From a bacterium (GTDB taxonomy: Bacteria > Patescibacteriota > Microgenomatia > Daviesbacterales > UBA10151), in assembly GCA_021786105.1 (NCBI GenBank), contig JAJYNW010000026.1, positions 1-64,000 on the forward strand: a stretch of 64,000 nt of DNA. Direction: 5' to 3'. The notes under the pieces were generated by a model that saw nothing but the letters and a program-made list of their open reading frames with translations, did no database searches and was not told the origin of the DNA. Position numbers and translations under genes: made by a program. Positions 131 to 64,000 of this stretch are shown here, piece by piece; position 1 is the first letter of the stretch; each line of letters opens with the position of its first letter.

Positions 131-202
131 TCGGGGACGAGAGAATTGAACTCTCTGCTTCTCGCTCCCAAAGCGAGCGTTCTACCGATGAACTAGTCCC
201 CG
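131..202 (-). tRNA. tRNA-Pro(TGG)
   Basis: Reverse complement folds as a cloverleaf: CGGGGAC..GTCCCCG acceptor, anticodon arm CTCGC-TT-TGG-GA-GCGAG, T-loop GTTCAAT. Confidence 0.95.
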
Positions 203-9715: not shown

Positions 9716-10085
9716 GCAGAAATTATACCAAAGAAGAAGTAAAGTTAGGATCTTCCTAAATTCGCTATCACGTCTATCATCTGAAGCTCCCAATCGCGTT
9801 GCTCAGCTGAATTGCTATATGGAAGCGGAGCTTTTGGATCGACTTCGAGCATTTTTGCTATATCAGCAGGTCCGGAAACAATTCTTTCCCATAAAGTTTG
9901 CTGTCCTATCGGTTTGGACTCTCTTCGGGTTACCCCTAAATTTCCATCCGGTATTTTATCATTCCTTAATCTCTCTCCAGGCATTATCAAACACTAGCAT
10001 ACCAAAATTCTGCTGTCAATTCCTGTAAAACTATTATCGAATTCTTACAAAATAATGTTAGTATGGAACAAAAGGGGGTGAGAAA

Positions 10086-33940: not shown

Positions 33941-34015
33941 TGGTTGCCGGACTAGGATTCGAACCTAGAATTCACTGCTCCAAAGGCAGTTGTCCTACCG
34001 TTAGACGATCCGGCA
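33941..34015 (-). tRNA. tRNA-Gln(TTG)
   Basis: TGCCGGA..TCCGGCA-A-CCA; anticodon arm ACTGC-CT-TTG-GA-GCAGT. Confidence 0.95.
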
Positions 34016-54917: not shown

Positions 54918-55157
54918 TTACCTGCTAATCGTTGGTAATAAAACGTTTTCTGCTGGCTTTACGGCTTTTGTAGGCCTCTTTATAATCTTACCGGCAGAAA
55001 CTAGATTATCTTTAGGACTTTTCTTTATTTCTTCGGCTTGCGCTTCTGTTACCTCAATAAAACGGCTTTTATTTTCGTCAGCTATCACAGCGTCAAATTC
55101 TGCTTTGACAACAAATTGAATTTCGCCGTTTTCATCAAATTGTATAAAGTGTTTCAT
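54918..55157 (-). CDS. Hypothetical protein (fibre-accessory-like)
   Basis: 79 aa directly after the adhesin-like gene; SD GAGGAG. Confidence 0.6.
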   Translation of the reverse strand: MKHFIQFDENGEIQFVVKAEFDAVIADENKSRFIEVTEAQAEEIKKSPKDNLVSAGKIIKRPTKAVKPAENVLLPTISR

Positions 55158-57295: not shown

Positions 57296-57472
57296 TTACC
57301 CTACTGGCGGCGTACTTTTGACGCCAAAGTAAAAAGCCACAACTGCCAGAAGTACAGAGCTGACAACTCCATCGTGTCCTAATCCGATTAAAACAAACGA
57401 GCCGATAACCACAATCATTGCCAAAATATCAGTTGGTTTCATTCTATCCAGAAAATTATAAAATTCTTTCAT
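57296..57472 (-). CDS. Holin-like two-TM protein
   Basis: Two TM helices ending 'VVAFYFG'; ATGA coupling with the PLD gene. Confidence 0.55.
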   Translation of the reverse strand: MKEFYNFLDRMKPTDILAMIVVIGSFVLIGLGHDGVVSSVLLAVVAFYFGVKSTPPVG

Positions 57473-57978
57473 ATTCTGTTCCATAAAGTTTCGAAGTATC
57501 TAGTGAACTCTACTGCTACTTCTCTTGAAACTATTTTTATCGAAGCCTCATCATTAACTGTTACTGCACGCCTTGACATGTTATGCGATCCTAAAACTGT
57601 AATTTCTTGATCTATAATCCAAAGTTTGGCATGAGTAATAGGGGATGATGGCCCAAACTTTGCTAAAGCTCCGGCTTCTTGTAAATTTAAGATAGTGTTT
57701 TTGTTGACCGAATTTAGTGGATGTCTTGGATGTTCTTTGTTTAACAGAACTCGAACAGCAACTTTGCGCCTTGCGGCTTGCAAGACTTCATAGGAAAGTT
57801 GTTGAATACTTGAATCGTGGTCGTGATGATACCATTTCCACTCAAACTGAATAATATCTATACTCGCCTTGGCTTGCCGAACACAATCTGTGATCGTTCC
57901 AATGAAAGCTCTCCCCGGCAAAGGGGTAACTATAGCATTGATATTCTCAACCATTATTTTTGTTTGTAAGTCTTGCAT
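57469..57978 (-). CDS. PLD-superfamily (Nuc-like) nuclease, single HKD
   Basis: 'HAKLWIID..GSHNMS..NDE'. Confidence 0.88.
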   Translation of the reverse strand: MQDLQTKIMVENINAIVTPLPGRAFIGTITDCVRQAKASIDIIQFEWKWYHHDHDSSIQQLSYEVLQAARRKVAVRVLLNKEHPRHPLNSVNKNTILNLQEAGALAKFGPSSPITHAKLWIIDQEITVLGSHNMSRRAVTVNDEASIKIVSREVAVEFTRYFETLWNRI

Positions 57979-57989
57979 ACTTAAATTTT

Positions 57990-59960
57990 TACGCTTCCAA
58001 ACCTAATCGCAACTCCCAAGCGATGTACTACTAACGAAAGTTTGTCTGCGACACCATCGCTCGTGCCTCGCCTTATCGCTCGCCCTGCTTCGCAGGTCTC
58101 GCTTTGGCTTCGGCACTCGCTACCTTATGGGAAACTCCAACCTTTGTACTTTTCCCAAACCTTGGGTCGCTATCGCGCAACCCAAACCGCCAACCTTAAA
58201 CCCAATTGCGATTCGAAACTCCATCGCCCCCGACAATGCGCGCCGCCCGCCTACGGCGAACATATTTATAAGAAAAACTTGTAAGGAAAGGCGGCGCTAG
58301 GCGGGGGCTTGGGATTACCAAACATAACTCGCACCATTGCCTCTCTCGCCAAGCAAAGCTTGGCTCGTTCGGCTCCACAACTGCCCTTTGCTCGCAGTGC
58401 CTGGCCTCGCTTCGGGCAGCAGAAAAGGGTCGCTCGGTTCCCCCCGCCGCTTCTTCCCCCTAAAACCCCCTTCTTAGGCAACCCCCCTTAATCAAATGTA
58501 TTGCCATATTAGGGGGAAGAACGCTCTTGGGGGGATTCTCGCTTAAAAAAGCAGGCAATAATCTATAGTTGCTTTTTTTACCCTTTCTCTGACGCTACGC
58601 AGCGGGAACCCTGTACATCCCGCTGCTTCGCTTATTCGGCGACTCGTCGGAGCCTCAATTTCTCCAACTCGTCGCCTCCAATTCCCATCGTTTACTGTTC
58701 ATGTTGCTCTTGCAGGCGCGCTCGCTCCATCTCTTGCGGTCTTCGCTCGCTTGCCGTACCTGCTTTTTTATCCCTTTCTGAACGCCGCTTTTTAAAAAGA
58801 GTTATCTTTTTGTATAAATCAAAACTTCTCCCGAAGTTTTTCAAGCGGTATTAAGCGGCGTTGAAGTGGAATCCGCCAATAGCGGATATGGTGCGAGTAA
58901 AACCTATCATCGCCATATTCGGCGGCTGTGACCCCCGCTTATCGCTCACTCGCTTTTATTATATTTTTTAAGGTGCTCGTTCGCTGGGCGAGAGGGCGCC
59001 CTAGGGGGCGCCTCGCCCATGTCATTGCTTTCTAATAACGCTGTACAGTCTCTACCTCGCCGCCCGAAGTAGCGTTTTCTGAACCCAATCTCATCGGCGG
59101 GACGGCTACCTTTTAGGGTGGTTTAGTATCGCCTGCCTACGCGGGGGTGTGCCTTTTCCCCTCTCCTCCGCGTCGCTTCGCTCCTTGTCGGTGTCCCCCC
59201 TTCTGCGCAGGGGCGCTCCCTCTGGTCGCTTACCTGCTTGCGGGGGGAGCCCCCCTCGCCGTCGTATGGCTTGTGGAAACTCAACCGCTGTACCCGTGCG
59301 CCGAACCGCAATCTAAGCCTGTGGGCGCTCGCGCTTATCTTTTAATACTAAGGTCAACTTCGCGCTCGCTTGGGTTATCGGGGGCGCGGCGCCAAACCTC
59401 ATATAAGTCGTGAAGTTTTGTGTTGGCGCGCCCCCTCTTTTTGGCTCGTGCGCTTCGCTCGGGGGGCAGGCAACAGCCGCCGAAAAGAAAAACAAAAGCG
59501 TCTGTTTTTCCCTGCTTTCGAGCTAGCGCTTAGCTTTCGTTAGGTTTTCAAAGTGCTTGTTCCCATTGGCTTCCGATGTTGCGCGGGACAAACTTTTGTC
59601 TGTTATCAAGGGCATACTGCCCGCGCTGAAAATTCTTATCGTCGCCGATTATAAAAATACTAATCATAAATAATCATCAAATAAATCAATCATTTCTATT
59701 TTTTATTTAACCTAACATTTGGTTTAACGTTAAGTTTTTTTATTTTCTATCCCGGAGGGTAGATTTTTTGCAAACGGTCCCCCTAACCCCATTAACGCCG
59801 AAATGAGGCTAGGAGACCATCTGCGAGGAAAGTTTTATCTTTCCTATCCCGTCTGGGCTAGTTCCTCGCTGAACGGCTGGTGAGACTTAAAGAGTTTTTT
59901 TAGGACCCCCGGAGGGAATTGCACCACTCTCTTTTGGTCGCTCCCACCATGCAAACCCCA
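57990..59960 (-). other. About 2-kb non-coding structured region (ssDNA origin/packaging region or large ncRNA)
   Basis: GC-rich, no credible ORF, many inverted repeats, strong GCGA bias on the minus strand. Confidence 0.7.
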
Positions 59961-59979
59961 AGCGACCTGCCAGAAGTGT

Positions 59980-60357
59980 CTATGTTTTCTTCTTGGCGCT
60001 CTTATCAATTTCTTCCATGTCCTCGTCTGAAATTTCAGGATTACCTTTATTCCATACCGGATTATCGCCGTCTATTTTTTGCACTTCATAGTGGACACTT
60101 TCGCCCTGCTTAACTTTAGTAATTTTGATGACTTCTCCCTCTTTTATTTCAGAAAAAAATAAAGCGATCCGAGATGCAGAGGATGTAAATAGTTTTTTCT
60201 CTCCGTCAACTTCGATAGAGTAGCGGGGATTTTCTTTGGTTGGGTCCCGAAAACTTGGCACCATTTTATAACCGCAATAGATACCCACCGCGGATTCTCC
60301 GGGCTTTAACATTAAATAAGGACTATTCGCTTTGGCGTATTCTTCAAGCTCTCCCAT
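59980..60357 (-). CDS. Putative OB-fold ssDNA-binding protein
   Basis: 125 aa, beta-rich with aromatic residues, acidic tail 'EISDEDMEEID'; function is inference. Confidence 0.45.
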   Translation of the reverse strand: MGELEEYAKANSPYLMLKPGESAVGIYCGYKMVPSFRDPTKENPRYSIEVDGEKKLFTSSASRIALFFSEIKEGEVIKITKVKQGESVHYEVQKIDGDNPVWNKGNPEISDEDMEEIDKSAKKKT

Positions 60358-60412
60358 AGTTTTATTAATTTTGGTGCCCGCCAGCTCCTGCCCTGAACCA
60401 GCGGGCATATCC

Positions 60413-61024
60413 TTACGGAATAACCAGAGTCTGATCCGGGTAAATTAAATCCGGATTTTGAATCTGGTCTTTGTTAGCGTTAAAAATGTCCTGCCAGCGA
60501 TTACCATTTCCGTAAAACTTCTCGCTTATTTTCCAGAGAGAGTCTCCTGGTTGCACTCGGTAGTGGTGAACAAGTTTGGCTTCATCAATGGCACTTCCTG
60601 TTGGTTCTTTGAGATATTTCATCGGGTCTGTCCAACCGCGCATACCCTCCGGTGTATCACCTTGAACTTTCATCCCGAAGTGAAGATGGGGACCGGTCAC
60701 AAATCCAGTGGCTCCACTTTCTCCGATCTGTTGACCTTTCGTAACATGATCTCCGATCTTCACAATAATTTTTGAAAGATGCCAATACAAAGATTGACCC
60801 CAAGAGTGTTTGATAATTACTCCCATTCCGTCTGAATCTGCTACATCATCATCGAAAATAATTTCTCCATCATCTACTGCAAAAACTGGTGTACCTACAG
60901 AGGCTTTAAGATCAATTCCGTTATGCGGATAGCCAAACTGTTTCAAATACCAGTCAGTAGCCGCGCCGAATGGCCAAGTAATAATCAATTCTCCTTCTAG
61001 TGGCTTTCCTATTTTTATTTCCAT
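60413..61024 (-). CDS. M23 peptidase plus LysM (peptidoglycan hydrolase)
   Basis: 'HNGID', 'YWHL', 'TGPHLHF'; LysM 'YRVQPGDSLWKIS..YG'. Confidence 0.93.
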   Translation of the reverse strand: MEIKIGKPLEGELIITWPFGAATDWYLKQFGYPHNGIDLKASVGTPVFAVDDGEIIFDDDVADSDGMGVIIKHSWGQSLYWHLSKIIVKIGDHVTKGQQIGESGATGFVTGPHLHFGMKVQGDTPEGMRGWTDPMKYLKEPTGSAIDEAKLVHHYRVQPGDSLWKISEKFYGNGNRWQDIFNANKDQIQNPDLIYPDQTLVIP

Positions 61025-62422: not shown

Positions 62423-63051
62423 TGGCTATCGCAATGCTTATTTTTATGGATGAATCCGGTGACACTGGATTTAAGTTTGGTAAAACTTCCAGTAAGTTTT
62501 TCGTTTTAGTTATCGTGATTTTTGATAGTTTGAGTGTTGCCGAAGAAGCAAACGAAGCCGTAAAGAAAGTCAGAAAAGAGTTAAAACTGCCAGAGAATTT
62601 TGAGTTTAAGTTTAGCACCGGTACATCAGATAAGGTGAAACGTGCTTTCTTACAAAAATTATCTAAATACAATTTTCGTTATAGAACAGTGATTGTTGAT
62701 AAAACCATCCTTGCCAAGCGTGAACCTTTACACCCCAAAGACAGTTTATACATGCTGGTTGCAGATCATCTCTTTTTAAGAGCGGAGGAGCGAATGAAAA
62801 ACGCTTCTATTTTTATAGATCGTATTTCTAAATCCTTTGTGGATGATTTTGATGGTTATTTAAGAAAACGACTAAACACTAATATTGAAAAGATTATCGG
62901 GAGAGTAAAACATCAGGACTCAAGAAGTAATAATTTACTCCAACTTGCCGATATGGTTTGCGGGGCAATTTATCGAAAATACAATCGTAGTGATGATAAG
63001 TTCTACAAGATTATCAAAAAAAGAGAGGAAGATTTATGGAAACCTTATTGA
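62422..63051 (+). CDS. DUF3800 domain protein
   Basis: 'FMDESGDTG' and 'LQLADMVCG'. Confidence 0.88.
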   Translation: MAIAMLIFMDESGDTGFKFGKTSSKFFVLVIVIFDSLSVAEEANEAVKKVRKELKLPENFEFKFSTGTSDKVKRAFLQKLSKYNFRYRTVIVDKTILAKREPLHPKDSLYMLVADHLFLRAEERMKNASIFIDRISKSFVDDFDGYLRKRLNTNIEKIIGRVKHQDSRSNNLLQLADMVCGAIYRKYNRSDDKFYKIIKKREEDLWKPY

Positions 63052-63055
63052 GTAG

Positions 63056-63152
63056 GAAAAAGTCGATCTCTGTGGCCAAGACGGATCACTTTTTATGGTG
63101 CCGACATTCGCTCCCTAACAGTAAGGTACTTTCACCACTGAGATCATTCGGT
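63056..63152 (-). ncRNA. Candidate DUF3800-associated structured RNA
   Basis: Promoter TTGATT-17-TATATT (63187-63159); closing stem GATCTC-a-GTGG/CCAC-a-GAGATC then U-tract. Confidence 0.55.
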
Positions 63153-63196
63153 AACTGTAATATAGCAAATATTGGGTCAAAAATCAAGGGGAAATT

Positions 63197-64000
63197 ATGA
63201 GAGCTTTAATCTATGTTAGGGTTTCAACAGACGAACAGGCCGATAAAGGCTTATCGTTACCTGCCCAGCAGGAAGCCTGTTTAGAATACATAAAAATTAA
63301 GCATTGGACTATTGACCCTAAAAAAGACATCTTTGTTGACGCCGGAGAATCAGCACGAACCGCTAATCGCCCAGCCCTCCAAGAAATGCTATCCCGCTGT
63401 AAGAAAGATAAAGAAGTCAATGTAGTTTTGGTCCATAAACTCGACAGGTTAGCCCGCAATGTAGCCGACCACGCGGCTATAAGGGGAATCCTGCGAAAAT
63501 ATGATATACAGCTTTGTTCTGTTGTTGAGCCTGTTGATGACAGCCCCACGGGAGCGCTTCTTGAAAATATTATGGCTTCCGTTGCAGAGTTCTATTCTGC
63601 TAATCTAGGACAGGAGGTAAAAAAAGGAATGAAGCAGGTACTTAAACAGGGGAGGTATCCGGGACGTGCGCCTGTCGGTTATCTTAATAAGGATATATTT
63701 GAGTCGGACGGCACTGTTACCAAAACAATAATTATGGATGCGATCAAAGCCCCTGCAATCCAGCAGGCTTTCAGAGTATTTGCCACTAACCAATGGACTC
63801 AAGAACAGTTATGCGATGAGCTTAATAAAAACGGCTTTAAGACGTTTTTTAATAATGGAGTAAGACCATGGAAATTGCACGGTATCCTCACAAACAAATT
63901 TTATATGGGTATTGTTGTGTGGGGCGGAGAAGAAGTGCAGGGAACCCATGAACCCTTGGTGTCTCCCGAACTATTTTACCGAGTGCAAGACGTCTTGAGA
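63197..64000 (+). CDS. Large serine recombinase (integrase), truncated by window end
   Basis: MRALIYVRVSTDEQ..GESA..RPAL..KLDRLAR..AEFYS..GR.PG..PVGY. Confidence 0.95.
   Translation, partial: MRALIYVRVSTDEQADKGLSLPAQQEACLEYIKIKHWTIDPKKDIFVDAGESARTANRPALQEMLSRCKKDKEVNVVLVHKLDRLARNVADHAAIRGILRKYDIQLCSVVEPVDDSPTGALLENIMASVAEFYSANLGQEVKKGMKQVLKQGRYPGRAPVGYLNKDIFESDGTVTKTIIMDAIKAPAIQQAFRVFATNQWTQEQLCDELNKNGFKTFFNNGVRPWKLHGILTNKFYMGIVVWGGEEVQGTHEPLVSPELFYRVQDVLR

What the first reader, a model, noticed from the sequence alone, without database searches (positions are those of the whole stretch)
57990..59960. About 2-kb non-coding, hairpin-dense, strand-asymmetric region
The region is GC-rich in an AT-rich genome and has no credible gene. 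Stems include TTCTTCCCCCTAA/TTAGGGGGAAGAA (58451-63/58509-21), GCAGCGGGA/TCCCGCTGC (58599-626), AACGCCGCTT/AAGCGGCGTT (58781-862), GCCAAGC/GCTTGGC and nested GC stems near 58985 and 59380. By hand count TCGC occurs roughly 35-40 times on the plus strand and GCGA fewer than 10 times. The minus strand therefore folds with repeated tandem GA/GA mismatches (gtgcc-GA..ggc-GA-ggcac) and a GC-GAA-GC mini-hairpin (58084-96), both known to be especially stable in ssDNA. Inference: a very large folded single-strand origin or packaging scaffold implying an ssDNA phase, or a large ncRNA or replication primer replacing a Rep protein.
Basis: partly seen in the sequence, partly recalled or inferred. Interest (0 to 1): 0.86.

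Follow-up and report, generated by a model that had tools for sequence, protein, structure and literature searches.

The report
Large structured RNA on recombinase island
The 2-kb gene-free, GC-rich stretch looks like the gene for a large folded RNA of a previously undescribed family, carried on small mobile islands in tiny-genome (CPR) bacteria; what the RNA does is unknown.

Summary
Window 57990-59960 is GC-rich, has no credible ORF, folds far better than shuffles, and carries 40 TCGC against 8 GCGA (0 of 1000 dinucleotide shuffles reach 40).

It is not an isolated oddity. About 57983-59490 is a long version of a 0.64-1-kb non-coding element found patchily and often in several copies in Microgenomates (CPR):
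- 26 of 96 genomes of the order
- 9 of 151 sampled genomes of the class

The non-coding sequence is more conserved than the flanking genes. Compensatory changes support many helices, including a long-range helix (58918-29 with 59473-84) that closes a 570-nt domain shared with the family. No Rfam family matches.

In 10 of 18 relatives examined, and here, a large serine recombinase gene lies 3-8 kb away on the same side and in the same direction. That recombinase sits next to a tRNA gene here and in 6 of those 10.

Best reading: a gene for a large multi-domain structured RNA, a conserved module of tRNA-integrating recombinase islands. It is probably read from the minus strand, which is purine-rich with A-rich loops and G·A helix ends. 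Covariation cannot settle the strand, and expression is unproven.

The ssDNA-origin and Rep-replacement ideas have no support. Function is unknown.

The parts
57983..58122 (.). Conserved terminal block. This is the plus-sense start or minus-sense end of the element. It contains the hairpin 58062-58118 with large symmetric TCGC/GCGA internal loops and the CCTGC-GAA-GCAGG (minus-sense) tip. Its first about 30 nt resemble the boundary motif of the short family. It ends 5-12 nt from the PLD gene start.
   Evidence: Identity to G009/G013 is 0.87-0.90. Consensus fold is -35.3 (minus) against -26.5 (plus) kcal/mol in 7 sequences. The boundary resemblance was read by eye.
58123..58391 (.). Variable insert. 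It is replaced by other sequence in G009 and largely absent in G013.
   Evidence: Three-way alignment. Identity 0.52-0.75 or unaligned. A 'skips 269' joint 58122->58392 appears in contigs of DNA runs X7/X8.
58392..58915 (.). Conserved, heavily paired domain specific to the long variant. It includes helices 58451-63/58509-21, 58599-607/58618-26, 58638-43/58671-76, 58544-55/58759-70 and 58781-90/58853-62.
   Evidence: Alignment A6 (9 sequences): 142 pairs, 98.6% of cells paired. 12 pairs changed on both sides against 4.5 +/- 1.4 in shuffles (0 of 500) and 0-2 in slid controls. z -4.9 to -6.4. One 190-nt contig of RNA library X19 lies at 58484-58673.
58916..59490 (.). Domain homologous to the 3' domain of the short family. 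It is closed by the long-range helix 58918-58929 with 59473-59484 plus CCCCCG/CGGGGG. The core hairpin is at 58985-59018, followed by the near-invariant TACAGTCTCTACC.
   Evidence: nhmmer E 1.9e-27 over 58922-59150. Model R1 gives E 4.6e-17 at 58916-59059. Alignment A3 (19 sequences): 57 pairs, 21 changed on both sides against 14.5 +/- 1.7 (0 of 500), 91 cells against 34.3, slid controls 4-10. The inverted repeat is I18.
59491..59640 (.). Moderately conserved hairpin region just outside the closing helix.
   Evidence: Identity 0.81-0.85. Consensus fold is weak on both strands: -16.5 minus, -20.3 plus.
59641..59745 (-). AT-rich variable spacer. A TTTATAAT motif on the minus strand (its TATAAT at 59648-59653) abuts the GC-rich body. 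It is a candidate -10 element for minus-strand transcription of the body.
   Evidence: The motif is kept in 12 of 13 aligned long variants while the surrounding spacer varies. L113 lacks the stretch. No convincing -35 was found.
59746..59771 (+). Terminator-like hairpin plus T-run on the plus strand.
   Evidence: Consensus scan. By my own count on the printed alignment, the stem is perfect in 5 of 13 long variants and has an A·A mismatch in the others. Terminator-like sites in the scanned region number 3 against 4.8 expected.
59735..59985 (-). Structured module directly after the stop of the 142-aa gene. It includes a hairpin of about 23 bp at 59776-59830 that is rich in G·U pairs, and it folds much better on the minus strand.
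   Evidence: MFE -88.3 (z -3.0) on minus against -73.2 (z -1.25) on plus. Consensus fold is -89.0 against -62.0 in 13 sequences. Alignment A4: 71 pairs, 10 kept through one-sided wobble changes, 2 changed on both sides, 3 with a break. Identity 0.92-1.00.
57469..57978 (-). Flanking gene: small PLD-family (Nuc/DrmC-like) nuclease. It is syntenic with the RNA in all long variants that reach this far.
   Evidence: PF13091 E 1e-21. Weak DrmC matches. Synteny.
59980..60408 (-). Flanking gene: 142-aa protein with no family, always next to the long-variant RNA. Its nearest language-model clusters are viral hypothetical proteins.
   Evidence: no family. (score 0.93, viruses 94-100%; a lead only). (17 loci at 67-92% identity).
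63197..64000 (+). Large serine recombinase gene. It runs on to 64714 of the contig, beyond the window, and is followed by tRNA-Gly(gcc) on the minus strand at contig 64693-64767. It is the same kind of gene, on the same side and in the same direction, as in 10 of 18 family loci.
   Evidence: PF00239 and PF07508. ORF to 64714. tRNA. Homologs at 24.7-31.1% identity, tblastn E 4.9e-24 to 4.3e-45. This is one of only 2 PF07508 genes in the genome.

Best explanation
Window about 57983-59490, probably together with the adjoining module up to 59985, is the gene of a large, multi-domain, self-folding non-coding RNA. It is a 1.5-2-kb long variant of a 0.64-1-kb RNA family confined, as far as searched, to Microgenomates (CPR).

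The RNA has at least two parts. One is a lineage-specific, densely paired domain (58392-58915). The other is a family-wide domain of about 570 nt (58916-59490) closed by a long-range helix.

The RNA gene is a conserved module of small integrative islands built as RNA element, then 3-8 kb of accessory genes (peptidoglycan hydrolase, nucleases, Bro-N and the like), then a large serine recombinase, often beside a tRNA gene. In the short-family islands the RNA sits at the island end far from the recombinase.

I infer that it is transcribed from the minus strand, starting at the conserved TATAAT at 59648-53 or by read-through from the 142-aa gene, and that it may run on into the PLD nuclease gene. 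I also infer that it acts as a stable folded RNA serving the island, that is an ornate scaffold-type RNA in the manner of ROOL/GOLLD, rather than as a DNA site.

Shown: conservation, covariation, family membership and genomic association.
Inferred: that it is RNA, the strand and the ends.
Guessed: the scaffold-like mode of action.
For: Conservation above that of genes: 58390-59490 and 59790-59989 are 0.86-1.00 identical to G009/G013, against 0.71-0.92 for the flanking coding sequence. In the divergent relative L113 the RNA block is 82.8% identical against 73.9-75.1% for the flanks.

Covariation:
- A6: 12 pairs changed on both sides against 4.5 +/- 1.4 (0 of 500 shuffles; slid controls 0-2)
- A3: 21 against 14.5 +/- 1.7, and 91 cells against 34.3 (0 of 500; slid controls 4-10)
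- The 600-nt closing helix changes GGCGGC/GCCGCC to GGTGGC/GCCACC and GTGGCGG/CCGCCAC to GTCGCGG/CCGCGAC in single genomes
- Variable columns make up 9.7% of paired and 19.8% of unpaired positions

Folding: z -4.9 to -6.4.

No coding signal.

Family distribution:
- 26 of 96 genomes of the order
- 9 of 151 of a class sample, 5 of them outside the family
- each copy is a GC-rich ORF-poor stretch of 650-1100 nt

Island association: a recombinase homolog lies on the same side and in the same direction in 10 of 18 loci and here.

Minus strand:
- Positions unpaired in both folds are A 240, G 105, U 79, C 30. In 16 short members they are A 49% and C 6% in minus sense.
- G·A is juxtaposed at 20 of 62 helix ends here and 119 of 377 in the family, against 24.5% expected here from unpaired composition and about 18% for the family (my own arithmetic from the counts).
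- Consensus folds favour minus in 4 of 5 blocks, clearly so for 59735-59985 (-89.0 against -62.0).
- TTTATAAT is kept in 12 of 13.

Weak hint of expression: a 190-nt, 98%-identical contig in a small metatranscriptome, with none over the flanking genes.
Against: No direct proof of transcription. The only RNA-library signal is one low-depth contig, and DNA carry-over is possible.

Covariation and wobble pairs do not tell the strand of the main body:
- pairs common to both folds show 8 minus-type against 7 plus-type wobbles
- the short family shows 23 against 21
- alifold energies for 58392-59640 are equal in 3 sequences (-423.6 plus, -423.3 minus) and -381.1 minus against -370.9 plus in 9

Plus-strand features exist. 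There is a terminator-like hairpin at 59746-63. All 11 recombinase genes and most cargo genes run in the plus direction of the element.

In short-family members the first roughly 100 nt of the element double as one arm of a 92-115-nt inverted repeat and overlap a degenerate tRNA-end copy. So at least that part has a DNA-level role.

The structures tested were derived from the same alignments, which inflates 'cells paired'.

The function is not indicated by any tool result. The scaffold idea is analogy only.
Confidence: 0.6

Rival explanations
1. Plus-sense RNA. The element is the long structured 5' portion of an island-wide plus-strand transcript (element, cargo, recombinase). In short-family islands the 92-118-nt inverted repeats would form long double-stranded processing stems that bracket 'RNA + cargo' and the recombinase mRNA, as in rRNA operons. 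In this window the plus transcript would stop at the hairpin at 59746-63.
For: - Recombinase genes are co-directional with the element's plus sense in 10 of 10 relatives and here.
- Most adjacent cargo genes also run in the plus direction.
- There is a terminator-like site on plus.
- Folds are as stable on plus: z -6.37 RNA, consensus energies equal in 3 sequences.
- Inverted repeats bracket the two island segments.
Against: - In plus sense the unpaired positions would be U 53% and G 7% here and U 49% and G 6% in the family. Helix ends would juxtapose C·U. Both are untypical of known structured RNAs (my own knowledge of rRNA and ribozyme composition).
- In this window the next three genes are on the minus strand.
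- By my own count, the terminator stem is intact in only 5 of 13 variants.
- By my reading of the alignment, several cargo genes have their own TATAAT-like boxes after the element.
Confidence: 0.2
2. The structure is used as single-stranded DNA. It would be an origin (single-strand origin or primer site) or a packaging or transfer scaffold of the excised island.
For: - DNA-parameter folds are as exceptional as RNA folds (z -6.44 and -5.84).
- Tandem G·A and GCGAAGC-type hairpins are stable in DNA (general knowledge).
- The island carries no recognisable replication gene among the proteins scanned.
Against: - No rolling-circle Rep, relaxase, primase or packaging gene was found nearby in the scans above.
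- The locus is chromosomal, with housekeeping genes on one side.
- Known single-strand origins are a few hundred nt (general knowledge), whereas this is 0.64-2 kb with helices spanning 550-600 nt.
- No match in plasmid or phage collections, and none of 29 IMG/VR motif hits was a true member.
Confidence: 0.07
3. A double-stranded DNA regulatory or recombination region. It would be an array of recombinase or repressor binding sites and att arms, with no folded nucleic acid. The paired changes would then reflect palindromic protein sites.
For: - The element's start coincides with an inverted-repeat arm and a tRNA-end-like att sequence in relatives.
- Operator-like palindromes occur beside some members (read by eye).
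Against: - Compensatory changes occur in many helices with arms 20-600 nt apart and with irregular loops. That is not the pattern of short dyad-symmetric protein sites.
- The strong TCGC/GCGA strand asymmetry has no meaning for symmetric duplex sites.
- This window's copy has no inverted-repeat partner anywhere in the genome.
Confidence: 0.06
4. Decayed protein gene or inert GC-rich foreign DNA.
For: The GC content is foreign to the genome and the region lies in an island.
Against: - It is more conserved than the neighbouring genes.
- No protein-family signal in any of 10 ORFs.
- Indels are not multiples of three.
- A family is conserved across the class without a conserved frame.
Confidence: 0.02

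Closest known systems
ROOL and GOLLD (large 'ornate' bacterial RNAs of unknown function, often on phages/prophages; RNA-only multimeric cages by cryo-EM, 10.1101/2024.12.08.627333, abstract seen in the listing)
   Same: - Several hundred to more than 1000 nt
- GC-rich relative to the host
- Multi-domain, with much covariation
- Patchy, often multi-copy distribution
- Linked to mobile DNA
- No associated enzyme
   Different: - No sequence or structure match to any Rfam 15 model
- Different host group (CPR Microgenomates)
- Fixed position in a serine-recombinase, tRNA-associated island rather than in phage genomes
- No match in the phage or IMG/VR searches
- Multimerisation not tested
IS110/IS1111 bridge (seek) RNA (PMC11208160, abstract seen in the listing)
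   Same: A structured RNA encoded at the end of a mobile element that moves by a site-specific recombinase.
   Different: - Bridge RNAs are much shorter, of the order of 180 nt (recalled from memory; the abstract seen gives no length), and pair with a DEDD recombinase. Here the recombinase is a large serine recombinase and the RNA is 0.64-2 kb.
- No cognate-specific match to the tRNA target was found: 6-10 nt for cognate as for non-cognate pairs.
tRNA-integrating recombinase islands with exchangeable cargo, e.g. tycheposons (10.1101/2020.12.28.424599, title and abstract start seen in the listing; details recalled)
   Same: Small islands beside tRNA genes, with a site-specific recombinase next to the tRNA and variable defence or accessory cargo.
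   Different: No large conserved non-coding RNA module is described for them, as far as I recall. The internal inverted copy of the putative attP and the 92-118-nt inverted repeats seen here are not features I know from them.
Single-strand origins (sso) of rolling-circle plasmids and structured origins of ssDNA phages
   Same: Strand-specific, hairpin-rich non-coding DNA.
   Different: These are a few hundred nt and sit next to Rep/dso (general knowledge). Here there is no Rep, the location is chromosomal, the element is 5-10 times larger and it has long-range covarying helices.

Membership tests
Any Rfam 15 family (including whichever of GOLLD, ROOL, ARRPOF, GEBRO, PAGEV, OLE, HEARO, group I/II introns and rRNAs are among the 4227 models) | Covariance-model match at or near the gathering score | tested here: not met
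   - Window at gathering threshold: only 3 tRNAs, none in the region.
- 57500-60500 at E<=10: two microRNA-family noise hits at 18-20 bits against cut-offs of 76-100.
- 12 related loci at gathering: 0 hits.
- 4 short members at E<=1: 3 noise hits far below cut-off.
New Microgenomates large-RNA family defined here | Shared core: closing helix, GC hairpin with UAGG-type loop, TACAGTCTCTACC box | tested here: met
   nhmmer E 1.9e-27 at 58922-59150. Model R1 gives 82.5 bits, E 4.6e-17 at 58916-59059, though this sequence was in the seed. The closing helix 58918-29/59473-84 sits at the homologous place.
New Microgenomates large-RNA family defined here | Island context: large serine recombinase 3-8 kb away on the plus-3' side, same direction, next to a tRNA gene | tested here: met
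   The recombinase is at 63197-64714 (+), 3.7 kb from 59490. tRNA-Gly follows at contig 64693-64767 (-). The same layout occurs in 10 of 18 relatives.
New Microgenomates large-RNA family defined here | Element start repeated in inverted orientation beyond the cargo (IR-B) | tested here: not met
   Present in 9 of 18 relatives. It is absent here: no second copy of any part of the region in the genome, and local alignments score only 21-28.
IS110-type bridge RNA | Adjacent DEDD (IS110) recombinase; internal loops complementary to target and donor | tested here: not met
   The neighbouring recombinase has Resolvase and Recombinase (serine) domains. Cognate tRNA-to-element matches are no longer than non-cognate ones (a crude exact-match test).
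Single-strand origin / rolling-circle replicon | Rep (HUH) gene and double-strand origin nearby; plasmid or phage replicon | tested here: not met
   No Rep-type domain among the 9 neighbours scanned with Pfam, 8 with PHROGs, 8 window proteins with PADLOC and 10 upstream genes. No plasmid or phage match.
ROOL/GOLLD-like RNA-only assemblies (mode of action, not homology) | Homo-oligomeric cage or other quaternary structure | not testable with these tools
   Needs native gels or cryo-EM of the transcript.
Transcribed RNA gene (any) | Strand-specific transcript with defined ends | tested here: inconclusive
   Runs X7/X8 behave as DNA. RNA library X19 gives one 190-nt contig at 58484-58673 with depth 2.4, and contigs carry no strand.

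The most novel reading that the evidence does not exclude
This is the first large 'ornate' RNA class of CPR bacteria and an obligatory RNA partner of a serine-recombinase island. The RNA would either control or assist the island's recombination (excision, integration or inversion between the long inverted repeats, or directionality), or form an RNA-only or RNP assembly that the island uses for maintenance or defence. That would link large serine recombinases to a dedicated structured RNA for the first time.
Probability: 0.15. Interest if true: 0.9.

Novelty: new variant of a known kind. Interest (0 to 1): 0.74.

Why it matters
Large structured bacterial RNAs of unknown function are rare, and each new class has opened new biology. 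None is described for CPR/Patescibacteria in the searches made here. These organisms have genomes of about 1 Mb, where 1-2 kb of conserved non-coding sequence is costly.

The family has a clear genomic address: one module of a tRNA-integrating serine-recombinase island. That makes its function testable by co-expressing RNA, recombinase and att sites. The family also offers a 0.64-2-kb size series for structural work.

It also explains why assemblies of these organisms often break at this locus.

Tried and rejected
Known RNA families: four Rfam searches found nothing.

Coding: 10 ORFs have no family.

Plasmid and phage collections: no match for the region or a short member.

IMG/VR: two core motifs hit 29 viral contigs, but none contains the element by nhmmer, so these are chance matches.

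Strand by covariation or wobble: three different counts gave no signal.
Strand by tetraloop type: GNRA/UNCG loops are rare on both strands.
Strand by terminators in the family: no consistently placed site on either strand.
DNA versus RNA by energy: indistinguishable.

Expression: X7/X8 are labelled RNA-Seq but cover genes and RNA alike and are flagged 'probably DNA'. X19 gave a single contig. A part without cover in those contig sets is not evidence.

Bridge-RNA-like guide: no cognate complementarity to the tRNA target.

Consistent neighbour gene: the immediate neighbours are heterogeneous. The BLAST cluster that joined G118/G111 proteins to M23 peptidases is not backed by an M23 Pfam hit for those two. 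M23 adjacency is therefore shown only for this window, its two close relatives, G005b and G073.

Inverted repeats or att repeats in this window's island: none found. Whether 57983 is an island end here remains open. The PLD-side genes are syntenic with the RNA in all long variants, and contigs of related strains diverge near 54932-54982.

Literature: six full-text searches and one paper searched by terms gave no description of such an RNA. They might hold candidate-RNA lists that include it.

Full report
THE OBSERVATION

The stretch 57990-59960 is real and unusual.
- GC is 0.52 against 0.33-0.46 in every other 1-kb bin of the window.
- No ORF exceeds 88 aa. Ten ORFs of 54-88 aa have no Pfam family.
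- TCGC occurs 40 times and its complement GCGA 8 times. Dinucleotide-preserving shuffles give 16.3 +/- 3.6 for TCGC (0 of 1000 reach 40) and 6.0 +/- 2.2 for GCGA. The asymmetry therefore goes beyond base composition.
- Twenty of the 40 sites are identical in all eight full-length homologs.
- The 58392-58920 part folds 4.9-6.4 standard deviations better than shuffles on either strand, with RNA or DNA parameters. Flanking genes scanned the same way give z between +0.8 and -2.6.

WHERE IT LIES

The window is part of an 89-kb contig of a 1.04-Mb, 92%-complete genome. Close relatives of the neighbouring 142-aa gene are labelled Candidatus Daviesbacteria, Gottesmanbacteria and Levybacteria, that is Microgenomates of the Candidate Phyla Radiation.

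To the left lie housekeeping-type genes: NAD synthase, cysteine desulfurase, thioredoxins and P-type ATPases. From about 55.1 kb the genes look accessory:
- two unknown proteins
- a small PLD-family nuclease (57469-57978, minus)
- the non-coding region
- a 142-aa protein with only viral-hypothetical look-alikes
- an M23-LysM peptidase
- two HTH proteins
- DUF3800
- a large serine recombinase at 63197-64714

The recombinase is followed directly by tRNA-Gly on the other strand.

HOMOLOGS

The whole region recurs in two congeneric genomes, G009 at 91% and G013 at 87%. It also recurs in metagenome contigs reached through the 142-aa gene: five full-length and four partial, at 79-96%.

Conservation is uneven:
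- 57990-58120, 58390-59490 and 59790-59989 are 0.86-1.00 identical, more than the flanking coding sequence at 0.71-0.92.
- 58123-58391 is replaced or missing in relatives.
- 59490-59790 is variable and AT-rich.

In the most divergent relative, L113, the protein is 67% identical and the flanks 74-75%, yet the RNA block is 82.8% identical. This is the opposite of what a decaying gene or a spacer would show.

A WIDER FAMILY

A core of about 230 nt (58922-59150) matches, at nhmmer E 1.9e-27, a set of GC-rich, ORF-poor elements of 640-990 nt in related genomes. A DNA query from one member found matches in 26 of 96 genomes of the order. Matches are often several per genome and often at contig ends. 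A covariance model of the core found it in 9 of 151 genomes sampled across the class, five of them in four other families. Those copies are again GC-rich non-coding stretches of 650-900 nt.

The short elements have two halves.
- The 3' half (in the window's plus sense) is closed by a helix between a GTGGCGG...CCCCCGC stretch and a GCGGGGG...CCGCCAC stretch about 600 nt away. Single genomes change this helix on both sides (G014 and G005a).
- Our region has the same closing helix (58918-29 with 59473-84, a 12-nt perfect complement), the same GC hairpin (58985-59018), the same near-invariant TACAGTCTCTACC box and further shared blocks.
- Its start at about 57983 resembles the family's boundary motif (read by eye).

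So about 57983-59490 is a long variant of the family with an extra domain of about 520 nt (58392-58915) and a variable insert. The stretch 59490-59985 is additional.

STRUCTURE

Counting pairs on tool-made alignments with controls:
- Nine long variants over 58385-58925: 142 pairs, 98.6% of cells paired. 12 pairs changed on both sides against 4.5 +/- 1.4 in shuffles (0 of 500) and 0-2 when partners are slid.
- 19 sequences of the shared 3' domain: 57 pairs. 21 changed on both sides against 14.5 +/- 1.7, and 91 cells against 34.3 (0 of 500), slid controls 4-10.
- In the three-genome alignment 9.7% of paired and 19.8% of unpaired columns vary.

The structures were derived from the same alignments, which inflates 'cells paired'. 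The two-sided changes and the slid controls are less affected. No Rfam family matches the region or eleven related loci at curated thresholds, nor at permissive ones.

WHICH STRAND, AND RNA OR DNA?

Energies cannot tell. Neither can wobble pairs in helices common to both strands: 8 against 7, and 23 against 21 in the family.

Four things point to the minus strand.
1. The module 59735-59985, directly after the 142-aa gene, folds at -88.3 (z -3.0) on minus against -73.2 (z -1.25) on plus. Its consensus fold in 13 sequences is -89.0 against -62.0. It has many conserved G·U pairs and ten one-sided changes that keep pairing only on minus.
2. Consensus folds favour minus in 4 of 5 blocks.
3. Positions unpaired in both folds are A 53%, G 23%, U 17%, C 7% in minus sense. 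In 16 short members they are A 49% and C 6%. This is the A-rich, C-poor loop make-up I know from rRNAs and ribozymes. The plus sense would have U-rich, G-poor loops.
4. Helix ends juxtapose G with A in 20 of 62 cases here (24.5% expected) and 119 of 377 in the family (about 18% expected by my own arithmetic from its unpaired counts). G·U follows in 15 against A·C in 5 here.

The plus sense would place C·U there.

In addition, TTTATAAT on the minus strand abuts the GC-rich body and is kept in 12 of 13 variants inside an otherwise variable spacer.

Three things point against the minus strand.
- There is a terminator-like hairpin on plus at 59746-63. By my own count its stem is perfect in only 5 of 13.
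- All recombinase genes and most cargo genes run in the element's plus direction.
- No terminator-like site on minus separates the region from the PLD gene.

My odds are minus about 0.65-0.7, plus about 0.2-0.25, and a DNA-level role only for the rest.

Expression is unproven. Two 'RNA-Seq' runs behave like DNA. One true metatranscriptome of 43 million letters has a single 190-nt contig at 58484-58673 and nothing over the flanking 8 kb.

GENOMIC ASSOCIATION

I fetched +/-9 kb around 18 family members. Ten have a homolog of this window's large serine recombinase (24.7-31.1% identity, tblastn E 4.9e-24 to 4.3e-45). It lies 3.2-8.0 kb from the element, always on the plus-3' side and always in the plus direction, as here at 3.7 kb. 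At least two of the other eight loci are cut by contig ends. The own genome has only two such recombinase genes.

In nine of the 18, the first 92-115 nt of the element recur, 97-100% identical, in inverted orientation beyond the cargo. In seven of them a second repeat pair of 70-118 nt brackets the recombinase gene. The outer arm of that second pair abuts the 3' end of a tRNA gene in 6 of 6 checked.

In L125 the element's start carries, on the other strand, a degenerate copy of the tRNA 3' end. The tRNA side and the element side therefore look like attL and attR. The junction between recombinase and cargo has the sequence expected for attP, inverted. I cannot explain that internal site.

Cargo next to the element includes:
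- M23 peptidases
- an Alw26I-type restriction enzyme
- a NucC-like nuclease
- Bro-N proteins
- a serine hydrolase

The other side holds ordinary genes such as thioredoxin-reductase-like, rhodanese and phytoene-synthase-like.

This window's copy has the recombinase and the tRNA but no inverted repeats. It also has further accessory genes on its left.

WHAT IT MOST LIKELY IS AND DOES

Shown:
- a conserved, covarying, non-coding element of a family not in Rfam
- its fixed place in serine-recombinase islands of Microgenomates

Inferred:
- it acts as folded RNA, because helices span up to 600 nt, the asymmetry is strand-specific, and there is no replication context
- it is read from the minus strand, from about 59640 or by read-through from the 142-aa gene, ending near 57985 or running into the PLD gene

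Guessed:
- the mode of action

I commit to a stable, self-folding RNA that serves the island in trans, that is an ornate or scaffold RNA like ROOL/GOLLD, at about 0.4 given that it is RNA. A cis role as a long leader or processing unit of an island transcript gets about 0.2. A role in the island's recombination gets about 0.15. A simple test for a bridge-RNA-like guide was negative.

COMPARISON AND NOVELTY

The region works like the known large mobile-element-linked RNAs, but it is a member of none (membership table). Six literature searches found no description of such an RNA in CPR bacteria. Supplements were not available. I rate it a new variant of a known kind, namely a new family of large structured bacterial RNAs with a new genomic partner.

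VERDICT

- Observation: confirmed.
- Interpretation: partly supported. The 'large ncRNA' alternative is favoured. The ssDNA-origin and Rep-replacement alternatives are not.
- Interest: 0.74.

Noticed in passing
L115, L117, L118, L123, L124, L125, L127, L129, L131 (relatives; e.g. L125:1129-1246/2662-2775 and 2766-2859/9869-9962): Two adjoining pairs of long inverted repeats (70-118 nt, 95.7-100% identical within a genome, different between genomes). One pair brackets 'RNA body + cargo'; its outer arm is the first about 100 nt of the RNA element. The other pair brackets the serine recombinase gene. They could be inversion substrates, transposon-like ends or RNA processing stems.
   Followed up: partly
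L125:2640-2880 (S2) compared with L125:1080-1290 and 9830-10010 (alignment A7): The junction between recombinase and cargo reads as 'element-start arm | core | recombinase-side arm'. That is the sequence expected for attP of the excised island, but it sits inside the integrated island in inverted orientation. The core contains a short palindrome. This is unexplained.
   Followed up: partly
17 assemblies that carry the 142-aa gene (L086-L089, L101-L113): By my count from the locus ranges, contigs end inside 57990-59960 in 11 of 17 (for example at 59924, 59910, 59881, 59744, 59706, 59389, 59346, 59274, 58851, 58437 and 58071). Assemblers break at this RNA, perhaps through strain variation or the core shared with other copies.
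   Followed up: no
window 63019-63352, especially 63099-63138: In metagenome runs X7/X8 the summed contig depth jumps to 385/202 (neighbouring bins about 13-62), with loose ends on both sides. A short multi-copy sequence lies just upstream of the recombinase gene.
   Followed up: no
window 54932-54982: Contigs of related strains diverge here, right after the P-type ATPase gene (loose ends in X7 and X8). This may be the left end of the accessory region.
   Followed up: no
short-family members, alignment A2/A3 (e.g. L018:1450-1480): A near-invariant CCCACCCACCC (GGGTGGGTGGG on the other strand) precedes the closing helix in the short family. It is absent from this window's long variant.
   Followed up: no
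L027, L029, L037, L005 just after the element; also inside the 5' half of L004: An operator-like palindrome (two 9-nt arms, AATCGGCCA and its complement, spaced by about 13-14 nt) sits between the element and the next gene, followed by a -10-like box. Read by eye.
   Followed up: no
L086-L089: Near-identical islands (the 142-aa protein is 85-89% identical) sit in records labelled Daviesbacteria, Gottesmanbacteria, Levybacteria and 'uncultured Gammaproteobacteria'. This reflects either lateral spread of the island or loose taxonomic labels.
   Followed up: no
G000:C17:57484-57738: The genome's only other large serine recombinase gene has no copy of the RNA element detectable anywhere else in the genome.
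   Followed up: partly
L128:9013-9096: In G176 a tRNA-Tyr gene (minus) directly abuts the start of the element (9094). Here the element itself, not the recombinase, is next to a tRNA.
   Followed up: no
window 131-202, 279-360, 33944-34015; contig 64693-64767, 64905-64978, 67406-67482, 67653-67738: Several tRNA genes lie in and just beyond the window. A 21-nt exact direct repeat (64750-70 and 64882-902) lies in or near the tRNA-Gly gene and in the spacer just before the neighbouring tRNA-Phe gene.
   Followed up: no
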